Shown here: piece by piece, positions 2,829 to 63,260 of the stretch
Position numbering within the stretch: position 1 is the first letter of the stretch
Layout of the letters: each line of letters starts with the position of its first letter
Assembly: GCA_963931605.1 (NCBI GenBank)
Contig: OZ007031.1
Coordinates: 913,332 to 977,331 of the forward strand
DNA length: 64,000 nt
Source: an uncultured Coriobacteriaceae bacterium
GTDB lineage: Bacteria > Actinomycetota > Coriobacteriia > Coriobacteriales > Coriobacteriaceae
Direction: 5' to 3'
Program-made: the position numbers and the translations under genes
Notes under the pieces: model-generated
The model's database searches: none
What the model was told of the DNA's origin: nothing
The model's input: the letters and a program-made list of their open reading frames with translations, nothing else

Positions 2829-3440
2829 CGGTTGGTCGCGCTTTCGACAGCCGTCGCAGGGGCCGCGCGCTTTTCTCGGCAGGTGCGGCCGCGGTTAGCC
2901 GCGTTTCCGACGTCGCCGCAGGGGCTGCATGTTCTTCTCGGCAGGTGCGAGGGGCTCGTCAGGCCGCGCCGCCGACGCCGCCACAAAACGCCTGCTTTTC
3001 TCAGCAGACGCAAGGCGCAGTACCCATTTTCGCAACGACCCCTGATGCGGCGCGTTTTTCTCGACAGGTGCGGATCGCGCTAACCGCGTTTCCGACGTCG
3101 CCGCAGGGGCCGCGCGTTTTTCCCGGCAGGTGCGAGGGGCTCGCGGCGTTTCCCCAGGAAACGCGTTAGGGCCTGCGCGCTTTTCTCGGCAGGCGCAAAA
3201 CGGGCGCGCCTTGCGTGGGCGCGCCACCTCCCCCGCTCCCGCATCTGTCGAGAAGAACCTGCCGAGAAGGCCCCGGGACGGCTCCGCGCCCTGCGACTGC
3301 CGAGAAGAACGCGCGGGCCGGCAGCCGCCGCCCCAACCCGCTCTGCACCTGCCGAGAGGAACCCGCAGAAACCGGCTCAAAACCCTCATCCTCGCTGCAT
3401 CTGTCGAGAAAAACGTACGGTGTCGCAACCGCGGCCAAAA
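2829..3440. repeat. mirror repeat block A: six ~62-bp units carrying TTTTCTCGGCAGGTGC, then four to five ~52-bp units carrying the reverse complement
   Basis: Forward motif starts at 2871, 2932, 2996, 3055, 3117, 3181. Reverse motif starts at 3241, (3259), 3293, 3345, 3397. Confidence 0.85.
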
Positions 3441-3703: not shown

Positions 3704-5039
3704 GGGGTTATAGGACAAAAAGTGTGTATGGGCTAGTCCCAGTCCATACGGTATGGCTCGGAGCGATGCAGCTCTGACCACACTATGGCATCTCCCCACT
3801 GAGGAATGGTTCCTTGTAGCTTGTCCTGCTGATTGAGTCTCTCGTATATAGCTCTGATAGAGCCGTCCGTCGGCATGGCACGCAGGATCTCCGCTGCAGG
3901 CAAGGGGCTCGGGCTGTGCATACAGCACCACCAGAAGATCGCCTTGAGCCTGCGTTCGATAGAAAGTCCCCTATGGTCCCTGAGCATGGCTCTGAGCTGC
4001 GCGTTGGTGCCGCCTTCGATACGGTTGTTGGTGGCCGGGAGAGGGGCGAGGTGCTCTAGGCGGGGATCAAGGTAGGTGAACAGCGTCCCGGTGTTGATGA
4101 GCCGGGCGAGAGACCTCCGCGCCTTGACGAGGCGTTCATGCGCGAGGACGCACCTTCCCTCTTCCGTCTTCGTCCTCTCCGATAGGAAGTCGTCCCACCT
4201 CTCGGACCACGCAAGGAATGCCTCCGCCCACCCCTGCGCCTCTTTAAGGGTGGTGATGCCGAGCAGCGCTTTGGCAAGGCCGTACAGCTCTGCGCCCGCC
4301 TGCGTGCGGGGCTTCGAGGTGGTGTAGCGCTTGACCTGGGAGAATGCGTGGAAGATGCAGCGCTGGTGGTGCGCACGGGGCCATGTCTTCCCGAGCGCCT
4401 TCGGAAAGCCGTCGCCCCCGTCCGAGACGACCACCTCGGGGGCGGCTATGCGCTGCATCAAGGCCGACCAGCCGCGGCTGTTCTCCGCACGGCATAGGTG
4501 CCATCCCAGTACATGGCGCTCATCCGAGGCGATGAGCACGACGGCCTTTCTTCCGAGGTGTATGCCGTCAACGTAGATGACGCTTCGCGGCTCCTCTATC
4601 TTGGGCGGCATGGGCCATATATCCCAGAAGGGCGCGCACTTCCTTCTGAAGGTCCTGCCGGCCCCCGGCATATCTGATTGACGTTTGCGGGACAAAAGCC
4701 ACGCCAGGAAGGTTCTAAGGTCCTTGGCAGAGGTGTCGATCCTCCTCACCGAGCTCGAGCCGCAGCACCTACATCTGAAGCGAGTCCTGCCAGCTTTCGT
4801 TTTCCCGTTCTTAACCATATTGGAGCCGCAAACAGGGCAGCGGGGATTTCCCACGGCAACCTCGCAGATAGGCCAACTTCACTGTTAGAAACAACATGGT
4901 CTACCTGCGAGGATATGAAATTCTATACACACCTTTTGTCCAGGCAAAAGTTGGGACGATGCAACTCGAAGAGGCAATTTATAGGTATCTACCTGCAGTG
5001 ATACAGGAATCCCATACACACTTTTTGTCCTATAAGCCC
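3704..5039 (-). mobile_element. IS1249-like (IS256 superfamily) insertion sequence, ~1.34 kb
   Basis: Terminal inverted repeats GGGGTTATAGGACAAAAAGTGTGTATGGG (3704-3732) and CCCATACACACTTTTTGTCCTATAAGCCC (5011-5039) match at 28/29. They enclose a single transposase ORF. Confidence 0.85.
3733..4854 (-). CDS. IS1249-family transposase, 373 aa
   Basis: N-terminal zinc-finger CPVCGS...RFRCRCCG. The mutator/IS256-like core includes VIYVDGIHLGRK, VVSDGGDGF and HHQRCIFH. Confidence 0.88.
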   Translation of the reverse strand: MGNPRCPVCGSNMVKNGKTKAGRTRFRCRCCGSSSVRRIDTSAKDLRTFLAWLLSRKRQSDMPGAGRTFRRKCAPFWDIWPMPPKIEEPRSVIYVDGIHLGRKAVVLIASDERHVLGWHLCRAENSRGWSALMQRIAAPEVVVSDGGDGFPKALGKTWPRAHHQRCIFHAFSQVKRYTTSKPRTQAGAELYGLAKALLGITTLKEAQGWAEAFLAWSERWDDFLSERTKTEEGRCVLAHERLVKARRSLARLINTGTLFTYLDPRLEHLAPLPATNNRIEGGTNAQLRAMLRDHRGLSIERRLKAIFWWCCMHSPSPLPAAEILRAMPTDGSIRAIYERLNQQDKLQGTIPQWGDAIVWSELHRSEPYRMDWD

Positions 5040-5101
5040 AAACCGCTCCAAAACCACATACAAGCTTCATGGAGCCATGACGAGGCTGATGCCCTGAAAC
5101 G

Positions 5102-5378: not shown

Positions 5379-5843
5379 CTACGCGCGAACCTTGAAGCAG
5401 ACTTTCTTCACCTGCTGCGGGCCGTCGCCCGGGAACTCCAGCGTGGGCATGTGCGGCTCCCCCACCACAAAGATCGCGAAATGCCCTTCGTCCAGGTTGC
5501 CGTCAAGCGAGCGCTCGGCATCTACCAGCTCGAAGTCGCCCGCCTCGTCGTATGTCTGCACCAGCGTAGTGGCACCCGCCGCAGTCTTGAACGCCTCGCG
5601 GCCGATAAGGTCGATCTGCACGTCCATGTAGTCGCGGTGCGTCTCGTGGTGCGCGTCCTCGGGCTTGCGCGTGGTAGCCTCCATCACGTTGGCGTACACG
5701 TCGTCGCCGGCAATCTCGTTGCGGCCGAGCGGCAGGGCCGCCAGCTCTTCCGCGCTCTTGTTGGCTAGCCAGTCGATAAGCACGTCGAGATTGGGGTACA
5801 GGCCGCGGTACCTGCCGATATGGGAGAGCTCGTCGTAGATCAT
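5379..5843 (-). CDS. YhcH/YjgK/YiaL-family (DUF386) protein, 154 aa
   Basis: Family-typical layout: MIYDELSHIGRYRGL..., HRDYMDVQIDLIGRE, GHFAIFVVGEPHMP. Start is ATG 5843; the upstream part of the track ORF lies in repeat block B. Confidence 0.75.
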   Translation of the reverse strand: MIYDELSHIGRYRGLYPNLDVLIDWLANKSAEELAALPLGRNEIAGDDVYANVMEATTRKPEDAHHETHRDYMDVQIDLIGREAFKTAAGATTLVQTYDEAGDFELVDAERSLDGNLDEGHFAIFVVGEPHMPTLEFPGDGPQQVKKVCFKVRA

Positions 5844-6009
5844 GGCAACGCCTTTCGTGAAGCGGATGCGCGCGATGCGCCTTGTCGGTTCCATCATACC
5901 CGGATGCGCCGTGCGAACCAACCCGGCGCGGAGTTTGGGCGGTTCGGGTGGTGAGGGGCGGCTGTCCTGCGCTTGGATGCCAGCAGTGCGGGTAACCGCC
6001 GGGACCGGC

Positions 6010-6700
6010 GGCGCATCTGCCGAGAAAAATGCGCAGACTTTTTCAGCCGGCAATGCTTTCGCGACCAAAGGACTTTGCATCTAACGAGAAAAACGCGCGG
6101 GCTTCGTGAGTGGTGACGTTTTCGCAACCAAGCAGGGCATTCGATGTCGGAAGTGCGACCAACCGTCAGCGCCGGTAACGTACCTGCCGAGAAGAATGCG
6201 CGGGCCTCTCGGACGATGACGCTTTCGCGACCAAGCGGGACGATAGGTGTCGGAACCGCGGACAACCGAGTGAGACGAGTTCGGTTGGTCGCTGTTCCGA
6301 CATGGCCGATGTAGTTAGTCGCCCGAACCGCATCTAAATCCCGGAAATCCGGGAGTTGCGTGCGGCCCGGGCGACCAAGCGGAAGTTAGCGGTCGGATAT
6401 GCGACCAACCGGGAGCCTAGATGTCGCACTAACGGGCAAGTAGGAGCTTCGATGTCGCAACCGCGGGCAACTTATGCTTAGACGCCGGAAAGGTGACCAA
6501 CCGCCGGGGGCCACCGGTGCACCTGCCGAGAGAAATGCGCGAACTTCTCGGCCGATGACGCTTTCGCGACCAAGCGGGGCGATAGACGCCGCAAACGAGA
6601 GCAACTGCCAACGCCGGCGGCGTACCTGGCGAGAGTAATGTGCCCGCAGAGGGCGCGAGGCAGGAAGCTACCCCTCAGCCGCTGGCGCACCCGGCGAGAG
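6010..6700. repeat. repeat block B: GCAYCTGCCGAGAARAAYGCGC and GCGACCAAC/GGTTGGTCGC units around a palindromic core
   Basis: First motif starts at 6013, 6077, 6180, 6519, 6622, 6687. GCTTTCGCGACCAAGCGGG-type units lie at about 6054, 6117, 6219 and 6559. Dyad TCCCGGAAATCCGGGA is at 6339-6354. Confidence 0.8.
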
Positions 6701-7918
6701 TTACTCCTCCGCTCCACCGCCCAGCAGGCGCAGGGTGCCCATGAGGACCTGGGCCACGCGGTCGCTGGCGTCGGCGGCGCGGCGCAGAACCTCGTCGCGC
6801 GTGAGATCGGCGTCGCAGGCCCCGTGGGTCACCAGCGTGAGCCCCATGACCTCCATCCCTAACGCCCGAGCCATGATGACCTCGCACACGGCGCTCATGC
6901 CCACATACCGCGCGCCCAATGCGCGAAGCATTCCCGCCTCGGCCGGCGTCGGATAGCTCGGGCCTAGAAGCGCCGCGTACACGCCCTCGTCAAGCGCAAC
7001 GCCTGCCTCCTCGGCCGCCGCGCGCGCAAAGGCACGCAGGTACGGGGAGTACGTCTCGCCCATCGGCACAAACGGCGTGTCGACCATCGAGCCGACGGTA
7101 CGGCATGCCAGCGGGTTTCTCCCCGTGAGGTTGAGGTGGTCGGCGATAAGCCCGACGGTGCCGGGCGCAACATCCTCGTCGAGCCCGCAGGTGCCGCACG
7201 AGAAGATCACGTCGCGGCAGCCGATCCGGTGCGCGTGGCGCACGAGCGCCGTGACCTCGAGCTCGGAGAATCCCTGGTACAGATGGATGCGCCCAGGGTA
7301 CACCACCACCGGCACGCCCTCGATGGTACCAACCAGCGCCTCGAACACGTGGCCCTCAACCGGGCGCGCGTCATCGGGGAAGCCCTCGATGTCGGTATAC
7401 GGGATGCGCCGCACCACGCGCACGCACTGGGCGAGGTCGCCCATCTCGCTGCCCAGCATGATGGCAACCGGATGCTCCACGCTCGGCTCGCAATACGCTA
7501 CCTTTTCCTCGTTCACCACGGGTATCCCCTCTTTCCTGATAAGCTCGGCGGCAACGCCCCAGCCCGGCACGAGCCGGCCGGAGAACGTGCCGTCGTAGAT
7601 GCGGCCGGAGCCGCACGACGGACTCTTGGCCTTCAATATAGCAAGCCGCACGTGCGCCGCCTGGGCGCGCGCCAGGGTTTTGCGGGCACCGGTGGCAAAC
7701 GCCGCGCTAACGTCGTGCCCGGCGGCGTCCAGCACCCGCACACCTGCGCGCTCGGCCGGCGGTCGCGGGCGAGAAAGGCCGCCTGCCGTCTCGGGGCACA
7801 CGCCCACCACGCCCGCACCCAGGCGCGCAGCCAGCCTCTGCACCGCCGCGTTGGGCCGCGCCTCCCCGTCGAACCGGCAGGGCTTTCCCAGCAGGCATGC
7901 GCTTATCGCCACGTTCAT
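6701..7918 (-). CDS. fusion protein: DUF523 (TudS-like Fe-S) domain + trimeric-type purine nucleoside phosphorylase domain, 405 aa
   Basis: N-terminal half has ACLLGKPCRFDGE, GVCPE and KAKSPSCGSG (DUF523 cysteines). C-terminal half has GRIHLYQGFS, ADHLNLTG, GPSYPTPAE and MSAVCE (PunA/MTAP-like). AGGAG RBS precedes ATG 7918. Confidence 0.8.
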   Translation of the reverse strand: MNVAISACLLGKPCRFDGEARPNAAVQRLAARLGAGVVGVCPETAGGLSRPRPPAERAGVRVLDAAGHDVSAAFATGARKTLARAQAAHVRLAILKAKSPSCGSGRIYDGTFSGRLVPGWGVAAELIRKEGIPVVNEEKVAYCEPSVEHPVAIMLGSEMGDLAQCVRVVRRIPYTDIEGFPDDARPVEGHVFEALVGTIEGVPVVVYPGRIHLYQGFSELEVTALVRHAHRIGCRDVIFSCGTCGLDEDVAPGTVGLIADHLNLTGRNPLACRTVGSMVDTPFVPMGETYSPYLRAFARAAAEEAGVALDEGVYAALLGPSYPTPAEAGMLRALGARYVGMSAVCEVIMARALGMEVMGLTLVTHGACDADLTRDEVLRRAADASDRVAQVLMGTLRLLGGGAEE

Positions 7919-8074
7919 ACGCGCTCCTTCACTCGCGCGCCGCGCCGCACGTTCCCGCGCCGCGGCAGAACAAAGCGGGCGACCGCCGCAACAGCCGCCC
8001 GCCCTTCTCGCCCAAACCGTGTAAACCCAGGCAACCTGCGCACGCATGCACGCGGCGCCCCGGCCCGTGCCGCC

Positions 8075-16106: not shown

Positions 16107-16544
16107 GGAGCCTCCCCCTCGTTGCAAGCTATATGGTTCCCCCCAGCTGACCTGGTCTTTGCCCCCACACTTGCGCACCGGGGCGTTTGCTCGGGCCGCC
16201 GCGGCGGCCTTCACGACTAACCCGCTCGCCCGCGGGGCAACGTGCCCCAGAGGTGGTATACGGACGGTGCGACTTACTCCTAGGACGCGCCATGATCGCG
16301 CGGCGCGCACGCCGTCGCTTACGTGGACCCTTTCGGCCGCGTCTGCCTTGGGATTGAACAGGCCTCGCGCAAGGGAGCGCGCCAACGGGCACCGTACCCG
16401 CGTGCGTGCGTCTTGCACCTATTCGCAACCACAGACCTGGGAGGAACGTGCGGCAGTATAACAAGAAGAAGCCTAACCGTAAACCTGAACTTGAATGTTT
16501 TGGACAAACGAACAGAGAGGCCGCGTCAGCCGACATGCCGACGC

Positions 16545-17165
16545 GGTGCAAGCGGGCGAAAAGGGGTGTTCACGCAGGGGCGCGCGGGCGAGAAGGGTGT
16601 TCATGCAGGGGGCGCGCGGGCGAGAAGGGTGCTCGTATGAGAGCGCGCGGGCGAAAAGAGCGTTCATACGAAAAGCGTGGGCGAGAAGAACGAGGCGCAT
16701 GGGCGAAAGGAGCGTTCATACGAGCGCTGTGGGCGACAATTGCGTTCATACGACAAGCGTGGGCGAAAAGGACGTTCGTACGGACGCGGTTTTGTCGGCT
16801 AAGCCTTCGCACGGTATTTTTATACCGCAATGCGACCAGCTAGCGGGGAGGCGCATGCCGTAGTGCCGCCCCTACGGGCAACTCCAGTCGTATGATTGCT
16901 TTTCTCGCCCATGCCTGTCGTATGAGTGTTGTTTTCGCCCATACCCGTCGTATGAATGCCTTTTTCGCCCACGCGGTTCGTATGGACGTTGTTTTCGCCC
17001 GGCAGGTCCGTACGAATGGTGATTTCGCCCACGAAGCTCGTATAAGTGCTGTTTTCGCCTGCTTGGTTCGTATGAGCCGTTATTGTCGCCCGCGTGGTTC
17101 GCATGGATGATGATATCGCCCACGGAACTTGCCACGAGGCTCGCACGCACGCTCTTTTCGCCTGG
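16545..17165. repeat. mirror repeat block C: 8 + 8 units of ~30 bp (GGGCGAAAA-N6-TCATACG-N8 and its reverse complement)
   Basis: Left units start at 16554, 16586, 16618, 16649, 16679, 16701, 16731, 16761. Right units start at 16889, 16919, 16949, 16979, 17009, 17039, 17069, 17100. Confidence 0.9.
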
Positions 17166-20009: not shown

Positions 20010-20430
20010 GGCGCGCGCCTGCCGGTTGCCCGCGGAAACTACGACCAGGGCAGGCGGCTCCTTCGGTTGCCCGCGGAAAAGTCGCGCAAGCTTTTGGTCG
20101 GTTGCGAGAACATCGATCAGGCCCTCGGCTGGTCGCGAAAATGACGGCTAGAGCCGGTGGTCCCCCTTCGGCTGGTCGCGGAAGCGTCGTGCAGAACTTT
20201 GGTTGGTCGCCGTTTCGACATTGCCGGAACAGTTAGTCGCTCCCACGACAGCTAACTCCCAGAAATCCGGGAGTTGCATGCAGCCCGAACGACCAAACGG
20301 GATTTACCTGCGATTATCGCGATCAACCGGAGGCCTCGATGCCGTTAGCGCAACCAACTGGAGCTTGCGCGCCACCATCGCGGCCAACCGCAGCGCGAAC
20401 ACCGTTAGCGCGGCAAGCGCGAGCTGAATC
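20010..20430. repeat. mirror repeat block D between response-regulator and kinase genes: GGTTGGTCGC-type units, dyad core, then GCGACCAAC-type units
   Basis: Left units lie at about 20022, 20063, 20094, 20127, 20169, 20200, 20230. The dyad CTCCCAGAAATCCGGGAG is at 20255-20272. Right units lie at about 20285, 20315, 20344, 20367. Confidence 0.8.
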
Positions 20431-27139: not shown

Positions 27140-27265
27140 CGCGAGCCCGCAGATGGAGAGGCGATCCGACTTGTTCCGCAGCGCACCGCGGAAGTTACGG
27201 TTACTGGTATAGCCGGGGACTTGCACCCCGATTCCCCTGAGCAGCCGCCGGCTCCCCGGCCGCGC
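27140..27265 (-). promoter_or_regulatory. probable cobalamin (B12) riboswitch aptamer in the leader of the DUF4430-ecfT-ecfAA'S operon
   Basis: The minus strand reads AGGGGAATCGGGGTGCAAGTCCCCGGCTATACCAGTAACCGTAA...CCGCGGTGCGCTGCGG..AAGTCGGATCGCCTCTCC. This parallels the GGGAA-GGTG-AA-TCC / CCNGNAACNGTAA core and B12-box of RF00174 as I remember them. No covariance model was run. Confidence 0.6.
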
Positions 27266-37964: not shown

Positions 37965-38415
37965 CGGCGCGCGTTTTTCTCGGCAGGTGCTACGGTGCGC
38001 ATATTTCTCTCGACAGGTACGGCAGTGCGCACGCTTCTCTCGACAGATGCAGTCTACCTGAGCCTTTTGGGCCCAACCCTGCGCACTCTTCTCGGCAGAT
38101 GCAAAACCGACATGCGGCGCACTCCCCCAACGCTTGCATCTGTCGAGAAAAACCGGGCGAAATCGTGCAGCAATCCCTGCCGACGTCGCACCTGCCGAGA
38201 AGAACATGCCAACGCACCGTCAGTGGCCCCAGCCCCCTCACACCTGTCGAGAAAAACCAGCGAAACAGCGCGGCATACGTTGTCGACGTTGCGTCTGCCG
38301 AGACAAACTAACCGACATATCGCCAGCGGCTTTAACCTTCCTGCACCTGCCGAGAAGAACGCTCAAGGGGCCCCGCACTCGCACAAGCGGACGCATCTGC
38401 CGGGAAGATCGCGCA
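37965..38415. repeat. mirror repeat block E: four TTYTCTCGRCAGRTGC units, then six reverse-complement units at a 52-bp phase
   Basis: Forward motif starts at 37974, 38004, 38035, 38087. Reverse motif starts at 38136, 38188, 38240, 38291, 38343, 38393. Confidence 0.85.
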
Positions 38416-38452
38416 GAGCCCCCCGCGCGCAGAAAACGCCTGCGCCAGCCAA

Positions 38453-61550: not shown

Positions 61551-63260
61551 TCACGCCACCTCCCCTGCGGCGTGCGGGCTGGCGCCTGCGGGGCTGCCCG
61601 CGGCTGCCGCGTCGAACGCGCAGCCCTTCTCGCCCGCCGCGGCCGCACAAGCCGCGCGCTCCTCGTCCAAAAGCTCGGCCGAGAAGAGGTTCCCCCGCCC
61701 GAGCAGCCCCTGCGGGTCCAGCTGGCACTTGAGCCGCGCCATCTCGCGCAGGTGCCCCTCGCCGTACATAACGGCCAAGAAGTCGCGCTTGATCTTGCCC
61801 ACGCCATGCTCCGCCGACACCGCGCCGCCCATGTCTGTGACCGCGCACGCCCAGCGGCAGAACAGCTCCTTGCCGCGGGCGTGGTCGGCAGCGTTGCGCG
61901 GCAGCACGTTCACGTGCAGGTGGTTGTTGCCGATGTGGCCCCAGGTGGCGCTTTCGAGCCCCGCCTCGGCGAGCGTTTCGCGGTAGAGCGCCATCACGTC
62001 GTGCAGGCGGTCGTCGGGCACCGCCATGTCCGAGCCCAGCTTGGTGATGGCGGGGTCGGTGCGGCGCCGCTCGTCTATGAGCATGTTCACGCTCTCGGGC
62101 ACCGCGTGGCGGAAAAACCGCAGCCGCTCGCGGTCCACGTCGGTGCGGGCAACCCACGTGGCGTCCTCGCTGCCGCCCACCCGGGCGATAAGCGCCGCCA
62201 CGCGCTCAAGAGCGGCAAGCGCCTCGGGCTCGTCCGCGCAGCCCAGCTCGACGAACACGCACGCCGCGGCGGCCGGGTCCACGTCGGGCAGGGACGCAAA
62301 GCCCGCGCCCGCCGCCTTCTGGTGCCGCAGGATCCCCAGCGCCGCCCCGTCGAAGTACTCGAACGCCAGCGCGCACCCAAGCTCCGGGCGGGCGGCAACC
62401 ACGAAGTCGAGCGCCTGGGACTCCGCGGTAAAAAAGCAGCTCACCGCCCACACCACGGCGGGCGCCGACACAAGCTCGACCTCTATCTCGGTCACCACGC
62501 CCAGCGTGCCGTCCGAGCCCACGAACAGATCCACGGCGTCCATGCCGTCCTCTATGTAGTAACCCGAGGCGTTCTTGGTGCGCGGCATCTCGTAGGACGG
62601 GAGTGCCAGGTCCATGCGGCGGCCCTGCTCGGTCTCAAGCGCAAGCGTCCGCTCCGCCCCGCGCCCGCGCGCCACCCGCGCGCCGCGCTCAAGCGCCAGC
62701 GTCTCGCCGGAGGCGAGCACCACGCGCAACGCCCGGATGTGCGGGCGCGCCGGCCCGTAGCGGTAGCTGCGCGCGCCGGAGGCGTTGCACGCCACGATGC
62801 CGCCGAGCGTGGCAGAGGCCTCGGTGGGGTCCGTGGGGAAGATCTGCTCGGGCCCCTCGCAAAGCTCGCCCCACGCCCGCAGGCTCTCGGCGTCCCACCC
62901 GGCGGTGGGCATGCTCTTGTCGGCCAGGTACTTGCGCAGGTTGGCCAGCACCACGCCCGGCTGCAGGCGCACGCAGAAGACCGCGGCGCCGTCCGGGCCG
63001 GGAGCCACCCGCATCCCCAGCACGCGGTCCATGCGCGCAAGGTTCATCACATGCCCGCCCGCGGGCACCGCGCCGGCCGCCAAGCCGGTGCGGGCGCCTT
63101 GCACCGTCACCGGCGTGCCCGCGGCGCTCATCTGCCGCATAAGCGCGCGCACCTCGTCCTCGCTCACGGGAAACGAGATGCTCGCCGCGCTGCCCTGCGT
63201 GCGTGACTCGTCGCGGCAAAAGCCGGCGTAGCCCTCGTCCATCGGGTGCACGTTGACCAT
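61551..63260 (-). CDS. FAD-binding oxidoreductase (GlcD/D-lactate dehydrogenase family) with Ala-rich C-terminal tail, 569 aa
   Basis: FAD_binding_4-type VTVQGARTGLAAGAVP and GHIGNNHLHVN, plus C-terminal SAEHGVGKIK. AAGGAGG RBS. The stop is 1 nt from the etfB start. Confidence 0.88.
   Translation of the reverse strand: MVNVHPMDEGYAGFCRDESRTQGSAASISFPVSEDEVRALMRQMSAAGTPVTVQGARTGLAAGAVPAGGHVMNLARMDRVLGMRVAPGPDGAAVFCVRLQPGVVLANLRKYLADKSMPTAGWDAESLRAWGELCEGPEQIFPTDPTEASATLGGIVACNASGARSYRYGPARPHIRALRVVLASGETLALERGARVARGRGAERTLALETEQGRRMDLALPSYEMPRTKNASGYYIEDGMDAVDLFVGSDGTLGVVTEIEVELVSAPAVVWAVSCFFTAESQALDFVVAARPELGCALAFEYFDGAALGILRHQKAAGAGFASLPDVDPAAAACVFVELGCADEPEALAALERVAALIARVGGSEDATWVARTDVDRERLRFFRHAVPESVNMLIDERRRTDPAITKLGSDMAVPDDRLHDVMALYRETLAEAGLESATWGHIGNNHLHVNVLPRNAADHARGKELFCRWACAVTDMGGAVSAEHGVGKIKRDFLAVMYGEGHLREMARLKCQLDPQGLLGRGNLFSAELLDEERAACAAAAGEKGCAFDAAAAGSPAGASPHAAGEVA

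What the first reader, a model, noticed from the sequence alone, without database searches (positions are those of the whole stretch)
6010..6700. Block B: interleaved GCAYCTGCCGAGAARAAYGCGC and GCGACCAAC units with a palindromic core
The block A/E motif occurs six times, all in one orientation, starting at 6013, 6077, 6180, 6519, 6622 and 6687. The last copy abuts the stop of the DUF523-PNP gene. Interleaved with it are GCTTTCGCGACCAAGCGGG-type units at about 6054, 6117, 6219 and 6559, and shorter (A)TG(T)CGCAACC/GCGACCAACC units at about 6155, 6369, 6399, 6422, 6452 and 6493. The latter family flips orientation (CGGTTGGTCGC at 6281, GTTAGTCGCC at 6314) just left of the perfect dyad TCCCGGAAATCCGGGA (6339-6354). 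The block therefore combines the vocabularies of blocks A/E and D.
Basis: seen in the sequence. Interest (0 to 1): 0.62.

Follow-up and report, generated by a model that had tools for sequence, protein, structure and literature searches.

The report
Composite intergenic repeat block, strain-variable
The 860-base gap between two ordinary metabolic genes of an uncultured chicken-gut Coriobacteriia bacterium is filled by non-coding repeat DNA: a variable-number array of 64/103-base units with a 133-base palindromic element nested in it. The palindromic element recurs about 12-20 times in the organism, and the whole block looks like a new variant of the known bacterial intergenic mosaic repeats, not a gene or a specific switch.

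Summary
Window 5930-6700 is a non-coding mosaic of three short unit types: A, about 41 nt, carrying the 22-nt GCAYCTGCCGAGAARAAYGCGC motif; and B and C, about 31 nt, both built on GCGACCAA. The periods are 31, 64 and 103 nt. Nested in this array is a 133-nt palindrome (6281-6413) around an oriented 32-nt core (6334-6365). It is homologous to block D.

Related species have only 57-129 bp with no repeats between the same two genes. Strains of this species (98.6% identical in the flanks) show at least four haplotypes. One has lost a 64-nt unit and another a net 103 nt. The left array is only 69-75% identical between strains.

In seven metagenomes, 12-23 other contigs per run carry the core. Its 32 nt are almost invariant, while the arms vary.

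I found no match in Rfam, phage or plasmid collections, and no conserved ORF.

Best reading: a lineage-specific dispersed repeat family of the BIME/BOX/MIRU/ERIC kind, grown in place by unit slippage and recombination. The 27-nt unit is not an independent mobile element. It is the terminal sub-repeat of the palindrome.

Function and copying mechanism remain inferred.

The parts
6701..7918 (-). Upstream flanking gene: a DUF523 (2-thiouracil desulfurase-like) plus PNP_UDP_1 fusion. Its stop codon lies at 6701-6703.
   Evidence: Pfam PF04463 and PF01048. Gene calls in L001-L006 give 405 aa. The C-terminus has normal length compared with relatives.
5379..5843 (-). Downstream flanking gene: a YhcH/YjgK/YiaL (DUF386) protein of 154 aa.
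   Evidence: Pfam PF04074, E 1.7e-35. The same protein is encoded on 22 contigs.
5893..5921 (-). Putative own promoter of the YhcH gene: -35 TTGGTT (5916-5921), a 17-nt spacer, and -10 TATGAT (5893-5898). It lies outside the hypervariable zone.
   Evidence: Read from the sequence. The segment is 96.5% identical between haplotypes. A TAGAAT -10-like box sits at a similar distance in relative L122. The consensus scan did not call it, so this is an inference.
5930..6012 (+). Degenerate outer edge of the array: a C-like unit at about 5973-5997 plus a GCCGGGACCGGCGGC tail. This is the most strain-variable part.
   Evidence: Repeat family D3, 73% to the unit at 6140. BLAST matches 5971-6068 to 6140-6234 and to 6476-6573. 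Identity between haplotypes is 68.7%.
6013..6076 (+). A1-B1 unit, 64 nt. One such 64-nt unit (window 6030-6093 in the alignment) is absent in the L002-type haplotype.
   Evidence: The 64-nt gap is bounded by GCGC[G/A]TTTTTCTCG on both sides.
6077..6179 (+). A2-B2-C2 unit with tail, 103 nt.
   Evidence: Repeat family D1 with 103-nt spacing. Cores at 6124 and 6155.
6180..6269 (+). A3-B3-C3 unit lacking the usual tail. In run X10 the contig skips 6132-6248 and has 14 other letters there, a net loss of 103 nt.
   Evidence: The X10 joint runs from 6131 to 6249: it skips 117 nt with 14 letters between.
6248..6302 (.). Head-to-head junction of two C units (6248-6269 forward, 6281-6302 reverse). It can form a hairpin or cruciform.
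   Evidence: Inverted repeat I3, 22 nt, 86% complementary. DNA fold of 6244-6306 gives -20.7 kcal/mol, z -5.5.
6281..6413 (+). D-type palindromic element, 133 nt. It has terminal inverted C units (6282-6301 and 6392-6411), inner arms (6314-6333 and 6360-6379) and a central dyad.
   Evidence: Inverted repeat I4, 85% complementary. DNA fold gives -41.7 kcal/mol, z -7.0. Alignment to block D. Several paralogous contigs start aligning at 6279-6284.
6334..6365 (+). Oriented 32-nt core CTAAATCCCGGAAATCCGGGAGTTGCGTGCGG, with the dyad at 6339-6354. It is the best-conserved and most repeated part.
   Evidence: Summed contig depth is 9-26 times the baseline here. Only one variable position (6353) is listed among 12-23 paralogous contigs per run, while flanking positions vary in 25-50% of depth.
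6414..6518 (+). Right arm: forward 31-nt C-type units (cores at about 6432, 6463 and 6493) and a CCGGGGGCCACCGGT tail.
   Evidence: Tandem Repeats Finder reports period 31 at 6412-6470. Unit cores. Repeat families D2 and D5.
6519..6621 (+). A4-B4-C4 unit with tail, 103 nt.
   Evidence: Family D1, 82% to the unit at 6182. 6478-6605 matches 6140-6266 at 75%. An X1 paralogous contig is collinear over 6283-6449 and 6519-6580.
6622..6708 (+). Two decayed A units: one at 6622 (5 mismatches) and one at 6687 (8 mismatches). The second runs into the PNP stop codon.
   Evidence: Family D4 leader similarity is 83%.

Best explanation
Block B is a non-coding composite copy of a lineage-specific family of dispersed intergenic repeats. 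It fills what was ancestrally a short spacer between the PNP-fusion gene and the YhcH gene. It has two layers.

Layer 1 is a variable-number array of one 64-nt A-B unit and 103-nt A-B-C units, all in one orientation. This array gains and loses whole units and is shuffled by slipped-strand mispairing, unequal crossing-over or gene conversion between units.

Layer 2 is a nested D-type element: a 133-nt palindrome whose ends are inverted C units and whose centre is an oriented 32-nt core. The same element exists in about 12-20 other places in the organism. The core is therefore the part that is copied or kept by selection, while the arms decay.

Shown: the block is non-coding; the unit anatomy and periods; the empty orthologous spacer in relatives; copy-number and sequence polymorphism between strains; the multi-copy, conserved core.

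Inferred: slippage or recombination as the cause of the polymorphism; copying of the palindromic element by an unknown trans-acting enzyme or by recombination; nesting of the palindrome into a pre-existing A-B-C array. I also infer that the block is mainly a passenger. Its likely side effects are to separate YhcH from PNP transcription and to place strong hairpins in the PNP 3' region, with YhcH keeping its own promoter.
For: Non-coding:
- Gene callers place no gene in the gap on six independent contigs.
- The longer ORFs inside the block have no Pfam hit.
- Haplotypes differ by 64-nt, 103-nt and 1-2-nt indels, which no reading frame would tolerate.

Lineage-specific fill:
- Here the PNP-YhcH spacer is 857 or 797 bp.
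- It is 129 bp in L122 (PNP 74% identical) and 57 bp in L123-125 (62% identical), and none of the motifs is present.

Variable-number behaviour:
- The 64-nt deletion has both breakpoints in the same GCGCRTTTTTCTCG words.
- Run X10 shows a net 103-nt loss.
- Run X1 shows a recombinant haplotype.
- The left array is 69-75% identical between haplotypes, against 98.2% for the rest of the block and 98.6% for the flanks.
- The differences are mostly transitions.

Multi-copy core:
- 13-24 contigs per run align to the block in seven runs, and most of them are paralogous copies of the core.
- Summed depth over 6329-6365 is 9-26 times the baseline, with individual contig depths close to the baseline.
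- The 32 nt at 6334-6365 are nearly invariant.

Palindrome: DNA-fold z is -7.0 for 6281-6413.

Nesting: deleting 6270-6503 turns the A-unit spacings 103/339/103 into 103/105/103 and restores a normal unit tail.

No known family: no Rfam hit, no phage or plasmid match, and no viral-contig match.
Against: - No terminal target duplication, transposase or other partner protein was found. No strain lacks the palindromic insert, so mobility is inferred only from copy number.
- The near-invariance of the 32-nt core and the near-integer helical phasing of the unit lengths (31, 41, 52, 62 and 103 nt, about n x 10.3) could mean selection for protein binding instead of selfish or neutral spread.
- The contig-depth census is indirect. 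The mapping threshold of 80% identity biases it towards conserved copies, and some contigs may come from co-resident relatives.
- The 20-30% divergence of the left array between 98.6%-identical strains is not explained by a donor I could find. The right-hand paralogous copy is not the donor: 14 sites favour it against 13 that do not.
- The period-restoration argument gains only 3 extra matched bases.
- About 35 kb flanking the window contains no further copy, so the copies are unevenly spread.
Confidence: 0.6

Rival explanations
1. Protein-binding lattice. The oriented 32-nt core nucleates a sequence-specific DNA-binding protein, and the helically phased 31/41-nt units, mirrored around the core, are its cooperative binding sites. 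The block would then be a selected cis-element, such as a nucleoid-organising site, a transcription insulator or a decoy array, and not junk.
For: - The core is nearly invariant among 12-23 paralogous contigs per run while the arms vary.
- Unit lengths of 31, 41, 62-64 and 103 nt here, and 52 and 30 nt in blocks A, E and C, are close to whole numbers of helical turns.
- The best C units carry a GTCG-N6-CGAC dyad typical of dimer binding sites.
- The folding signal is equal on both strands, so the symmetry is at the DNA level.
Against: - The left array differs by 25-31% and by whole units between strains of one species. Strong selection on individual sites is therefore unlikely there.
- No candidate protein was identified.
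- Related species do without the block at this locus.
- The phasing argument was made after seeing the data.
Confidence: 0.2
2. RNA-level element. The block is transcribed with the PNP gene, and its hairpins act as a 3' stabiliser, terminator or insulator, or encode a small RNA.
For: - The block starts at the PNP stop codon and both flanking genes are on the minus strand.
- It has strong fold potential: z -4.8 on the minus strand, and a core hairpin of -23 kcal/mol.
- REP/BIME and ERIC elements are known to act this way (established knowledge).
Against: - The plus strand folds equally well, z -4.3.
- There is no Rfam match even at E<=5, and no terminator-like site.
- Dyad substitutions in block D and in the L002 haplotype favour opposite strands, so there is no consistent compensatory change.
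- No RNA run holds the locus, so transcription is untested.
Confidence: 0.08
3. The 27-nt unit CGGTTGGTCGCNNTTYCGACANNGCCG is itself a small mobile element that has inserted independently at 2829, 6139, 6281 and 20199.
For: It is the best-conserved sub-repeat. Exact 21-mer matches occur at 2829, 6145(-) and 6282, and 20200 has one mismatch.
Against: - Every copy lies inside a repeat block, and there is no solitary copy in the 64-kb window or in 35 kb of flank.
- The copies at 6281 and 20199 are homologous positions of two copies of the larger element.
- Strain indels involve one 64-nt deletion and one net 103-nt loss, never this unit alone.
- It gave no hits in viral contigs.
Confidence: 0.04
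4. A degenerate, orphan CRISPR-like array: a 22-nt repeat with spacers.
For: In blocks A and E the 22-nt motif recurs at an exact 52-nt pitch with dissimilar 30-nt intervals.
Against: - In block B the intervals are themselves repeats (B and C units), with pitches of 64 and 103 nt.
- The repeats differ by 1-8 of 22 bases.
- The block has no phage or plasmid match.
- The arrays are mirrored.
Confidence: 0.02

Closest known systems
MIRU / VNTR loci of Mycobacterium tuberculosis (mycobacterial interspersed repetitive units)
   Same: Tandem units of tens of nucleotides lie in the spacer between co-oriented genes of a high-G+C Actinobacterium. They are dispersed at several loci, and whole-unit copy number differs between strains: here one 64-nt deletion and one net 103-nt loss.
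   Different: MIRUs are uniform, one-orientation units whose short ORFs overlap the neighbours' stop and start codons. Here the units are 64 and 103 nt, not multiples of 3, and are mosaics of three sub-unit types. They include orientation switches and a nested palindrome. I know of no sequence relation to MIRUs, and none was tested.
BIME / REP elements of enterobacteria and pseudomonads
   Same: Both are intergenic mosaics of short units and linkers in many combinations. They often lie just after a stop codon, occur in many copies per genome, and can form hairpins.
   Different: REPs are roughly 35-nt palindromes that alternate in orientation and carry a conserved GTAG foot recognised by RAYT transposases. 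Here orientation switches only twice, the GTAG at 6311-6314 varies among paralogues, the A units are not significant hairpins, and no RAYT could be searched for.
BOX elements of Streptococcus pneumoniae
   Same: Both have a modular build in which the number of an internal module varies between copies and strains. Both are intergenic and non-coding, and the mobilising function is unknown.
   Different: BOX has a fixed A-B(n)-C order and no mirrored arms around a conserved core. The host phylum and the sequences are different.
ERIC (IRU) and Correia/NEMIS-type palindromic MITEs
   Same: The nested 133-nt part is an imperfect palindrome with terminal inverted repeats and a conserved centre. It is present in about a dozen or more copies, always between genes.
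   Different: No target-site duplication or empty/filled polymorphism was seen. The arms are built from roughly 31-nt sub-repeats that continue outward into arrays. The centre, not the termini, is the best-conserved part.
Foldback (FB) transposons of eukaryotes
   Same: The inverted arms are composed of tandem sub-repeats of variable number.
   Different: FB elements are eukaryotic, kilobase-scale and partnered with a transposase. The resemblance is one of design only.

Membership tests
MIRU/VNTR | Tandem intergenic units whose copy number differs between strains | tested here: met
   A 64-nt unit is absent in the L002-type haplotype. Run X10 shows a net 103-nt loss.
MIRU/VNTR | Units carry short ORFs in frame or overlapping with the flanking genes (translational coupling), all in one orientation | tested here: not met
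   Unit lengths of 64 and 103 nt are not multiples of 3. Orientation switches at about 6275 and at the core. No gene is called in the gap.
MIRU/VNTR | Sequence homology to the MIRU consensus | not tested
   No MIRU reference sequence was available in the tools. The phage and plasmid BLAST searches found nothing.
REP/BIME (REPIN-RAYT) | A palindromic unit of roughly 35 nt with a conserved GTAG-type foot | tested here: not met
   A units fold no better than shuffles, z -1.5 to +0.7. The GTAG at 6311-6314 is variable among paralogues at 6312 and 6313 and absent in block D.
REP/BIME (REPIN-RAYT) | A RAYT (Y1 HUH transposase) gene in the same genome | not testable with these tools
REP/BIME (REPIN-RAYT) | Clusters of units in alternating orientation | tested here: not met
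   Five forward B/C units, two reverse, the core, then seven forward.
MITE (palindromic, ERIC/Correia-like) | Terminal inverted repeats and a stable fold-back | tested here: met
   Arms 6282-6301 and 6392-6411 are 85% complementary. The 133-nt fold gives -41.7 kcal/mol, z -7.0.
MITE (palindromic, ERIC/Correia-like) | Many dispersed copies in the genome | tested here: met
   12-23 other contigs per run carry the core in seven metagenome runs. There is a second copy in the window, block D. This census is indirect.
MITE (palindromic, ERIC/Correia-like) | Target-site duplication and filled/empty sites between close strains | tested here: inconclusive
   No short duplication flanks 6281-6413. The insert is flanked by two C units that are only 68% alike. 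All four haplotypes carry it. Relatives lack the whole block.
CRISPR array | Near-identical repeats separated by unique spacers | tested here: not met
   Repeats differ by 0-8 of 22 bases. The intervals are themselves repeated B and C units.
Any Rfam RNA family | A covariance-model match | tested here: not met
   No hit at gathering thresholds. The only hit at E<=5 is a spurious lncRNA match at E=3.

The most novel reading that the evidence does not exclude
The oriented, almost invariant 32-nt core, flanked by mirrored and helically phased roughly 31-nt units, could mark a lineage-specific DNA-protein system in gut Coriobacteriia. In one version a dedicated protein nucleates at the core and spreads along the phased units, giving a chromosomal insulator or organiser. 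In another version an enzyme recognises the core and writes or copies units outward from it. Blocks A to E would then be different dialects of one system, not decaying junk.
Probability: 0.12. Interest if true: 0.75.

Novelty: new variant of a known kind. Interest (0 to 1): 0.4.

Why it matters
Dispersed intergenic repeats such as REP/BIME, BOX, ERIC and MIRU have been useful as strain-typing markers. They are also known as sources of promoters, terminators and mRNA stabilisers, and as records of otherwise invisible mobile machinery.

I found no description of such a family in gut Coriobacteriia in the literature searches I ran. This block shows that one exists in a chicken-gut lineage, and that it is modular, mixing two vocabularies. 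It varies by whole units between strains that are 98.6% identical, which makes it a ready-made VNTR marker.

Its conserved 32-nt core also gives a concrete handle for finding the protein or enzyme that recognises it. These repeats break short-read assemblies, which is relevant to the quality of metagenome-assembled genomes (MAGs).

If the block is only a passenger, the finding is ordinary biology for a new clade.

Tried and rejected

2. Genome-contig scan with GCAYCTGYCGAGAARAAY. All hits I inspected, including those in Atopobiaceae MAGs, were single chance matches, mostly inside coding E-K-N codons.

3. Metagenome-contig scan with a double-A pattern. It returned 10 loci, all coding or low-G+C tandem repeats, and none from this family. 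Two earlier attempts failed on pattern syntax.

4. Viral contig scans and phage and plasmid BLAST found nothing.

5. RNA evidence. No RNA run holds the locus.

6. Gene conversion from the right-hand paralogous copy as the source of the left-array divergence. Rejected: 14 sites favour it against 13 that do not. No closer donor exists in the window.

7. DGR-like mutagenesis. Rejected: the differences are mostly transitions at all four bases.

8. A-unit hairpins. They are not significant.

9. The dyad as an intrinsic terminator. It has no consistent U-tract, and the scan found none.

10. Walking 35 kb outward from both ends of the window to collect more copies. None was found.

11. A core-like hit at 62726 is a chance match inside a coding region.

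12. Literature searches found no described family.

Full report
**Observation.**
- The stretch lies in the 857-bp gap between two minus-strand genes. One is a DUF523 plus purine-nucleoside-phosphorylase fusion (6701-7918). The other is a YhcH/DUF386 gene (5379-5843).
- The 22-nt A motif GCAYCTGCCGAGAARAAYGCGC sits at the six stated starts, all on the + strand. Mismatch counts are 0, 2, 1, 1, 5 and 8.
- Five + strand hits (six on both strands) at <=5 mismatches compare with 0.003 in shuffles. The window has 18 hits at <=3 mismatches against 0 expected, confined to three intergenic blocks.
- The last, decayed copy runs into the PNP stop codon. The protein's C-terminus has normal length compared with its relatives.
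- The interleaved GCGACCAA-based units, the two flipped units at 6284 and 6314, and the dyad at 6339-6354 are all present.
- The C-type 21-mer has 8 hits against 0.03 expected.

**Anatomy.**
- The basic sub-unit is about 31 nt. The C type reads ..TAGATGTCGGAAnnGCGACCAACCG, and the B type reads GACGCTTTCGCGACCAAGCGGG.
- The A unit is about 41 nt.
- Together they give one 64-nt A-B unit and 103-nt A-B-C units. Autocorrelation peaks at 31, 62, 103 and 339 nt, z about 3-6.
- B/C units run forward five times (6061-6258) and reverse twice (6284, 6314). Then comes the core, followed by seven forward units (6371-6597).
- Positions 6281-6413 form a 133-nt palindrome with a DNA fold of -41.7 kcal/mol, z -7.0. 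The head-to-head C pair at 6248-6302 is a second strong dyad, z -5.5. The A units themselves are not significant hairpins.
- RNA folds of the whole block are equally good on both strands, z -4.8 and -4.3. The symmetry is therefore a DNA-level property.

**Relation to the other blocks.**
- Positions 6280-6471 align with block D (20198-20388) at 72% over 193 nt.
- The A-B units align at 68-69% with block A's left-arm units. The statement that block B mixes the two vocabularies is therefore correct.
- A-unit starts are spaced 103, 339 and 103 nt apart. Removing 6270-6503 (234 nt) makes this 103, 105, 103 and gives unit 3 a normal CCGG..CCGG tail. This suggests that a D-type element sits inside an A-B-C array. 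The gain is only three matched bases, so I call it suggestive.
- One contig in run X1 is collinear with 6283-6449 plus 6519-6580 at 85-90%. The same junction of palindrome and A-B unit therefore exists at another locus.

**Non-coding status.**
- No gene is called in the gap on six contigs.
- The ORFs inside the block have no Pfam hit.
- Haplotypes differ by indels of 64, 103 and 1-2 nt.
- Rfam gives nothing, and no promoter-like or terminator-like site is called.
- A plausible YhcH promoter (TTGGTT, 17 nt, TATGAT; 5893-5921) lies outside the variable zone and is conserved. This is an inference.

**Relatives.**
- PNP homologues place the organism among Coriobacteriia close to Collinsella, Olsenella and Thermophilibacter. 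The runs that hold the locus are chicken-gut, faecal and air metagenomes.
- In L122 (PNP 74% identical) the PNP-YhcH spacer is 129 bp. In L123-125 (62% identical) it is 57 bp. Both keep the same synteny through tRNA-Thr, and neither has any of the motifs.
- L120 (82% identical) goes from PNP straight to tRNA-Thr without YhcH. L121 (80% identical) has different synteny.
- Block B is therefore a lineage-specific fill of an ancestrally short spacer.

**Strain variation.** L001 is 100% identical to the window, and L002 differs by 1.4% in the flanks.

Identity between the window and the L002 haplotype inside the gap:

| Window segment | Identity |
|---|---|
| 6263-6700 | 98.2% |
| 6136-6262 | 74.8% |
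| 6093-6135 | 97.6% |
| 5930-6028 | 68.7% |

- One 64-nt A-B unit (window 6030-6093) is missing in L002, L003, L004 and L006. Both breakpoints lie in GCGCRTTTTTCTCG.
- Run X1 carries a recombinant: full length, with L002-like letters at 6140-6252.
- Run X10 carries a fourth form with a net loss of 103 nt and a more divergent right side.
- All forms keep the palindromic insert.
- The differences are mostly transitions.
- The right-hand paralogous copy is not the donor: 14 sites favour it against 13 that do not. No closer donor exists in the window.

**Copy number.**
- I laid Logan contigs from eight runs on the block at >=80% likeness. In seven of them 13-24 contigs aligned per run. The eighth, X11, laid a single contig.
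- Only one or a few of these contigs span the orthologous locus. The rest align only around 6281-6423.
- Summed depth over 6329-6365 is 9-26 times the baseline. Individual contig depths are close to the baseline, so most are paralogues in the same organism.
- Positions 6334-6365 show a single minor variant (6353), whereas 6312-6333 and 6366-6379 vary in 25-50% of the depth.
- Several paralogues begin to align at 6279-6284, the left end of the 27-nt unit.
- Loose-end consensus sequences show the same layout in the paralogues: a reverse C unit on the left, and CGACCAAACGG.. on the right.
- Walking about 35 kb outward from both ends of the window found no further copy. The five blocks in the window therefore form a local cluster.

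**Interpretation.**
- The best-supported reading (0.6) is a dispersed, non-coding mosaic repeat family of the BIME/BOX/MIRU/ERIC kind. A VNTR-like A-B-C array turns over by slippage and recombination. A palindromic element nested in it has a core that is the copied or constrained part.
- Main rival (0.2): a phased protein-binding lattice. The invariant core and the unit lengths of about n x 10.3 nt argue for it. The loose conservation of the arms and the empty site in relatives argue against it.
- An RNA-level role (0.08) is untested, because no RNA run holds the locus.
- The 27-nt unit as an independent mobile element (0.04) and a CRISPR-like array (0.02) are disfavoured.

**Limits.**
- The metagenome scan found only coding repeats.
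- Distribution in sister species, exact element ends, any target duplication and any partner gene therefore remain open.
- Earlier notes of this scan on blocks A, C and D and on the shared core reached similar readings. I treated them as leads and re-derived what I use here.

Noticed in passing
L120:6209-6468: In the closest relative recovered (PNP 82% identical), the PNP gene is followed after about 220 bp by a sequence that reads as the 5' part of tRNA-Thr(CGU), cut off by the contig end. The tRNA finder did not call it. No YhcH gene lies in between. In this genome and in two more distant relatives, YhcH sits between PNP and the tRNA.
   Followed up: partly
window 2829-3440 (L001 8143-8290 against L002 8154-8160): Block A also differs in length between the two strain haplotypes. 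The L001/L002 alignment breaks there and shows an off-register 94-nt match. Unit-number variation is therefore not peculiar to block B.
   Followed up: partly
window 3704-5040: An IS256-family (Transposase_mut) insertion sequence lies between tRNA-Thr and block A. It is present in all same-species contigs, but its transposase is called as 292 aa in L001 and as 297 aa in L002-L004.
   Followed up: no
window 16138-16445 and 27159-27238: A raiA RNA (127 bits) and an AdoCbl-II riboswitch aptamer that just passes its threshold (37.3 against 36.5 bits) are both on the minus strand.
   Followed up: no
window 16545-17165, 2865-3418 and 37969-38446: The other repeat blocks share a CGAGAAG-type word with the A motif: block C has GGGCGAGAAGGGTG against CTGCCGAGAAGAATG in A. 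Blocks A and E share their own centre (TGCAAAAC...CTCCCCC...GCATCTG), which differs from the B/D core. The families may form one superfamily with two kinds of centre.
   Followed up: partly
window 6701-8047: The PNP-fusion ORF is open for 43 further codons upstream (448 aa from an ATG at 8047). Gene callers and all homologues start at the MNVAISACL methionine, giving 405 aa.
   Followed up: partly
L137:4432-4517: A perfect 23-nt inverted repeat with a 40-nt spacer lies between a PTS EIIC gene and an asparaginase gene, about 20 kb outside the window. It is unrelated in sequence to the block B family.
   Followed up: no
L136, L137, L138, L139 (about 35 kb flanking the window): No member of the A, C or core motif families occurs in the 18 kb to the left or the 17 kb to the right of the window, whereas the window holds five blocks. 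The repeat blocks are therefore clustered and not evenly spread.
   Followed up: yes
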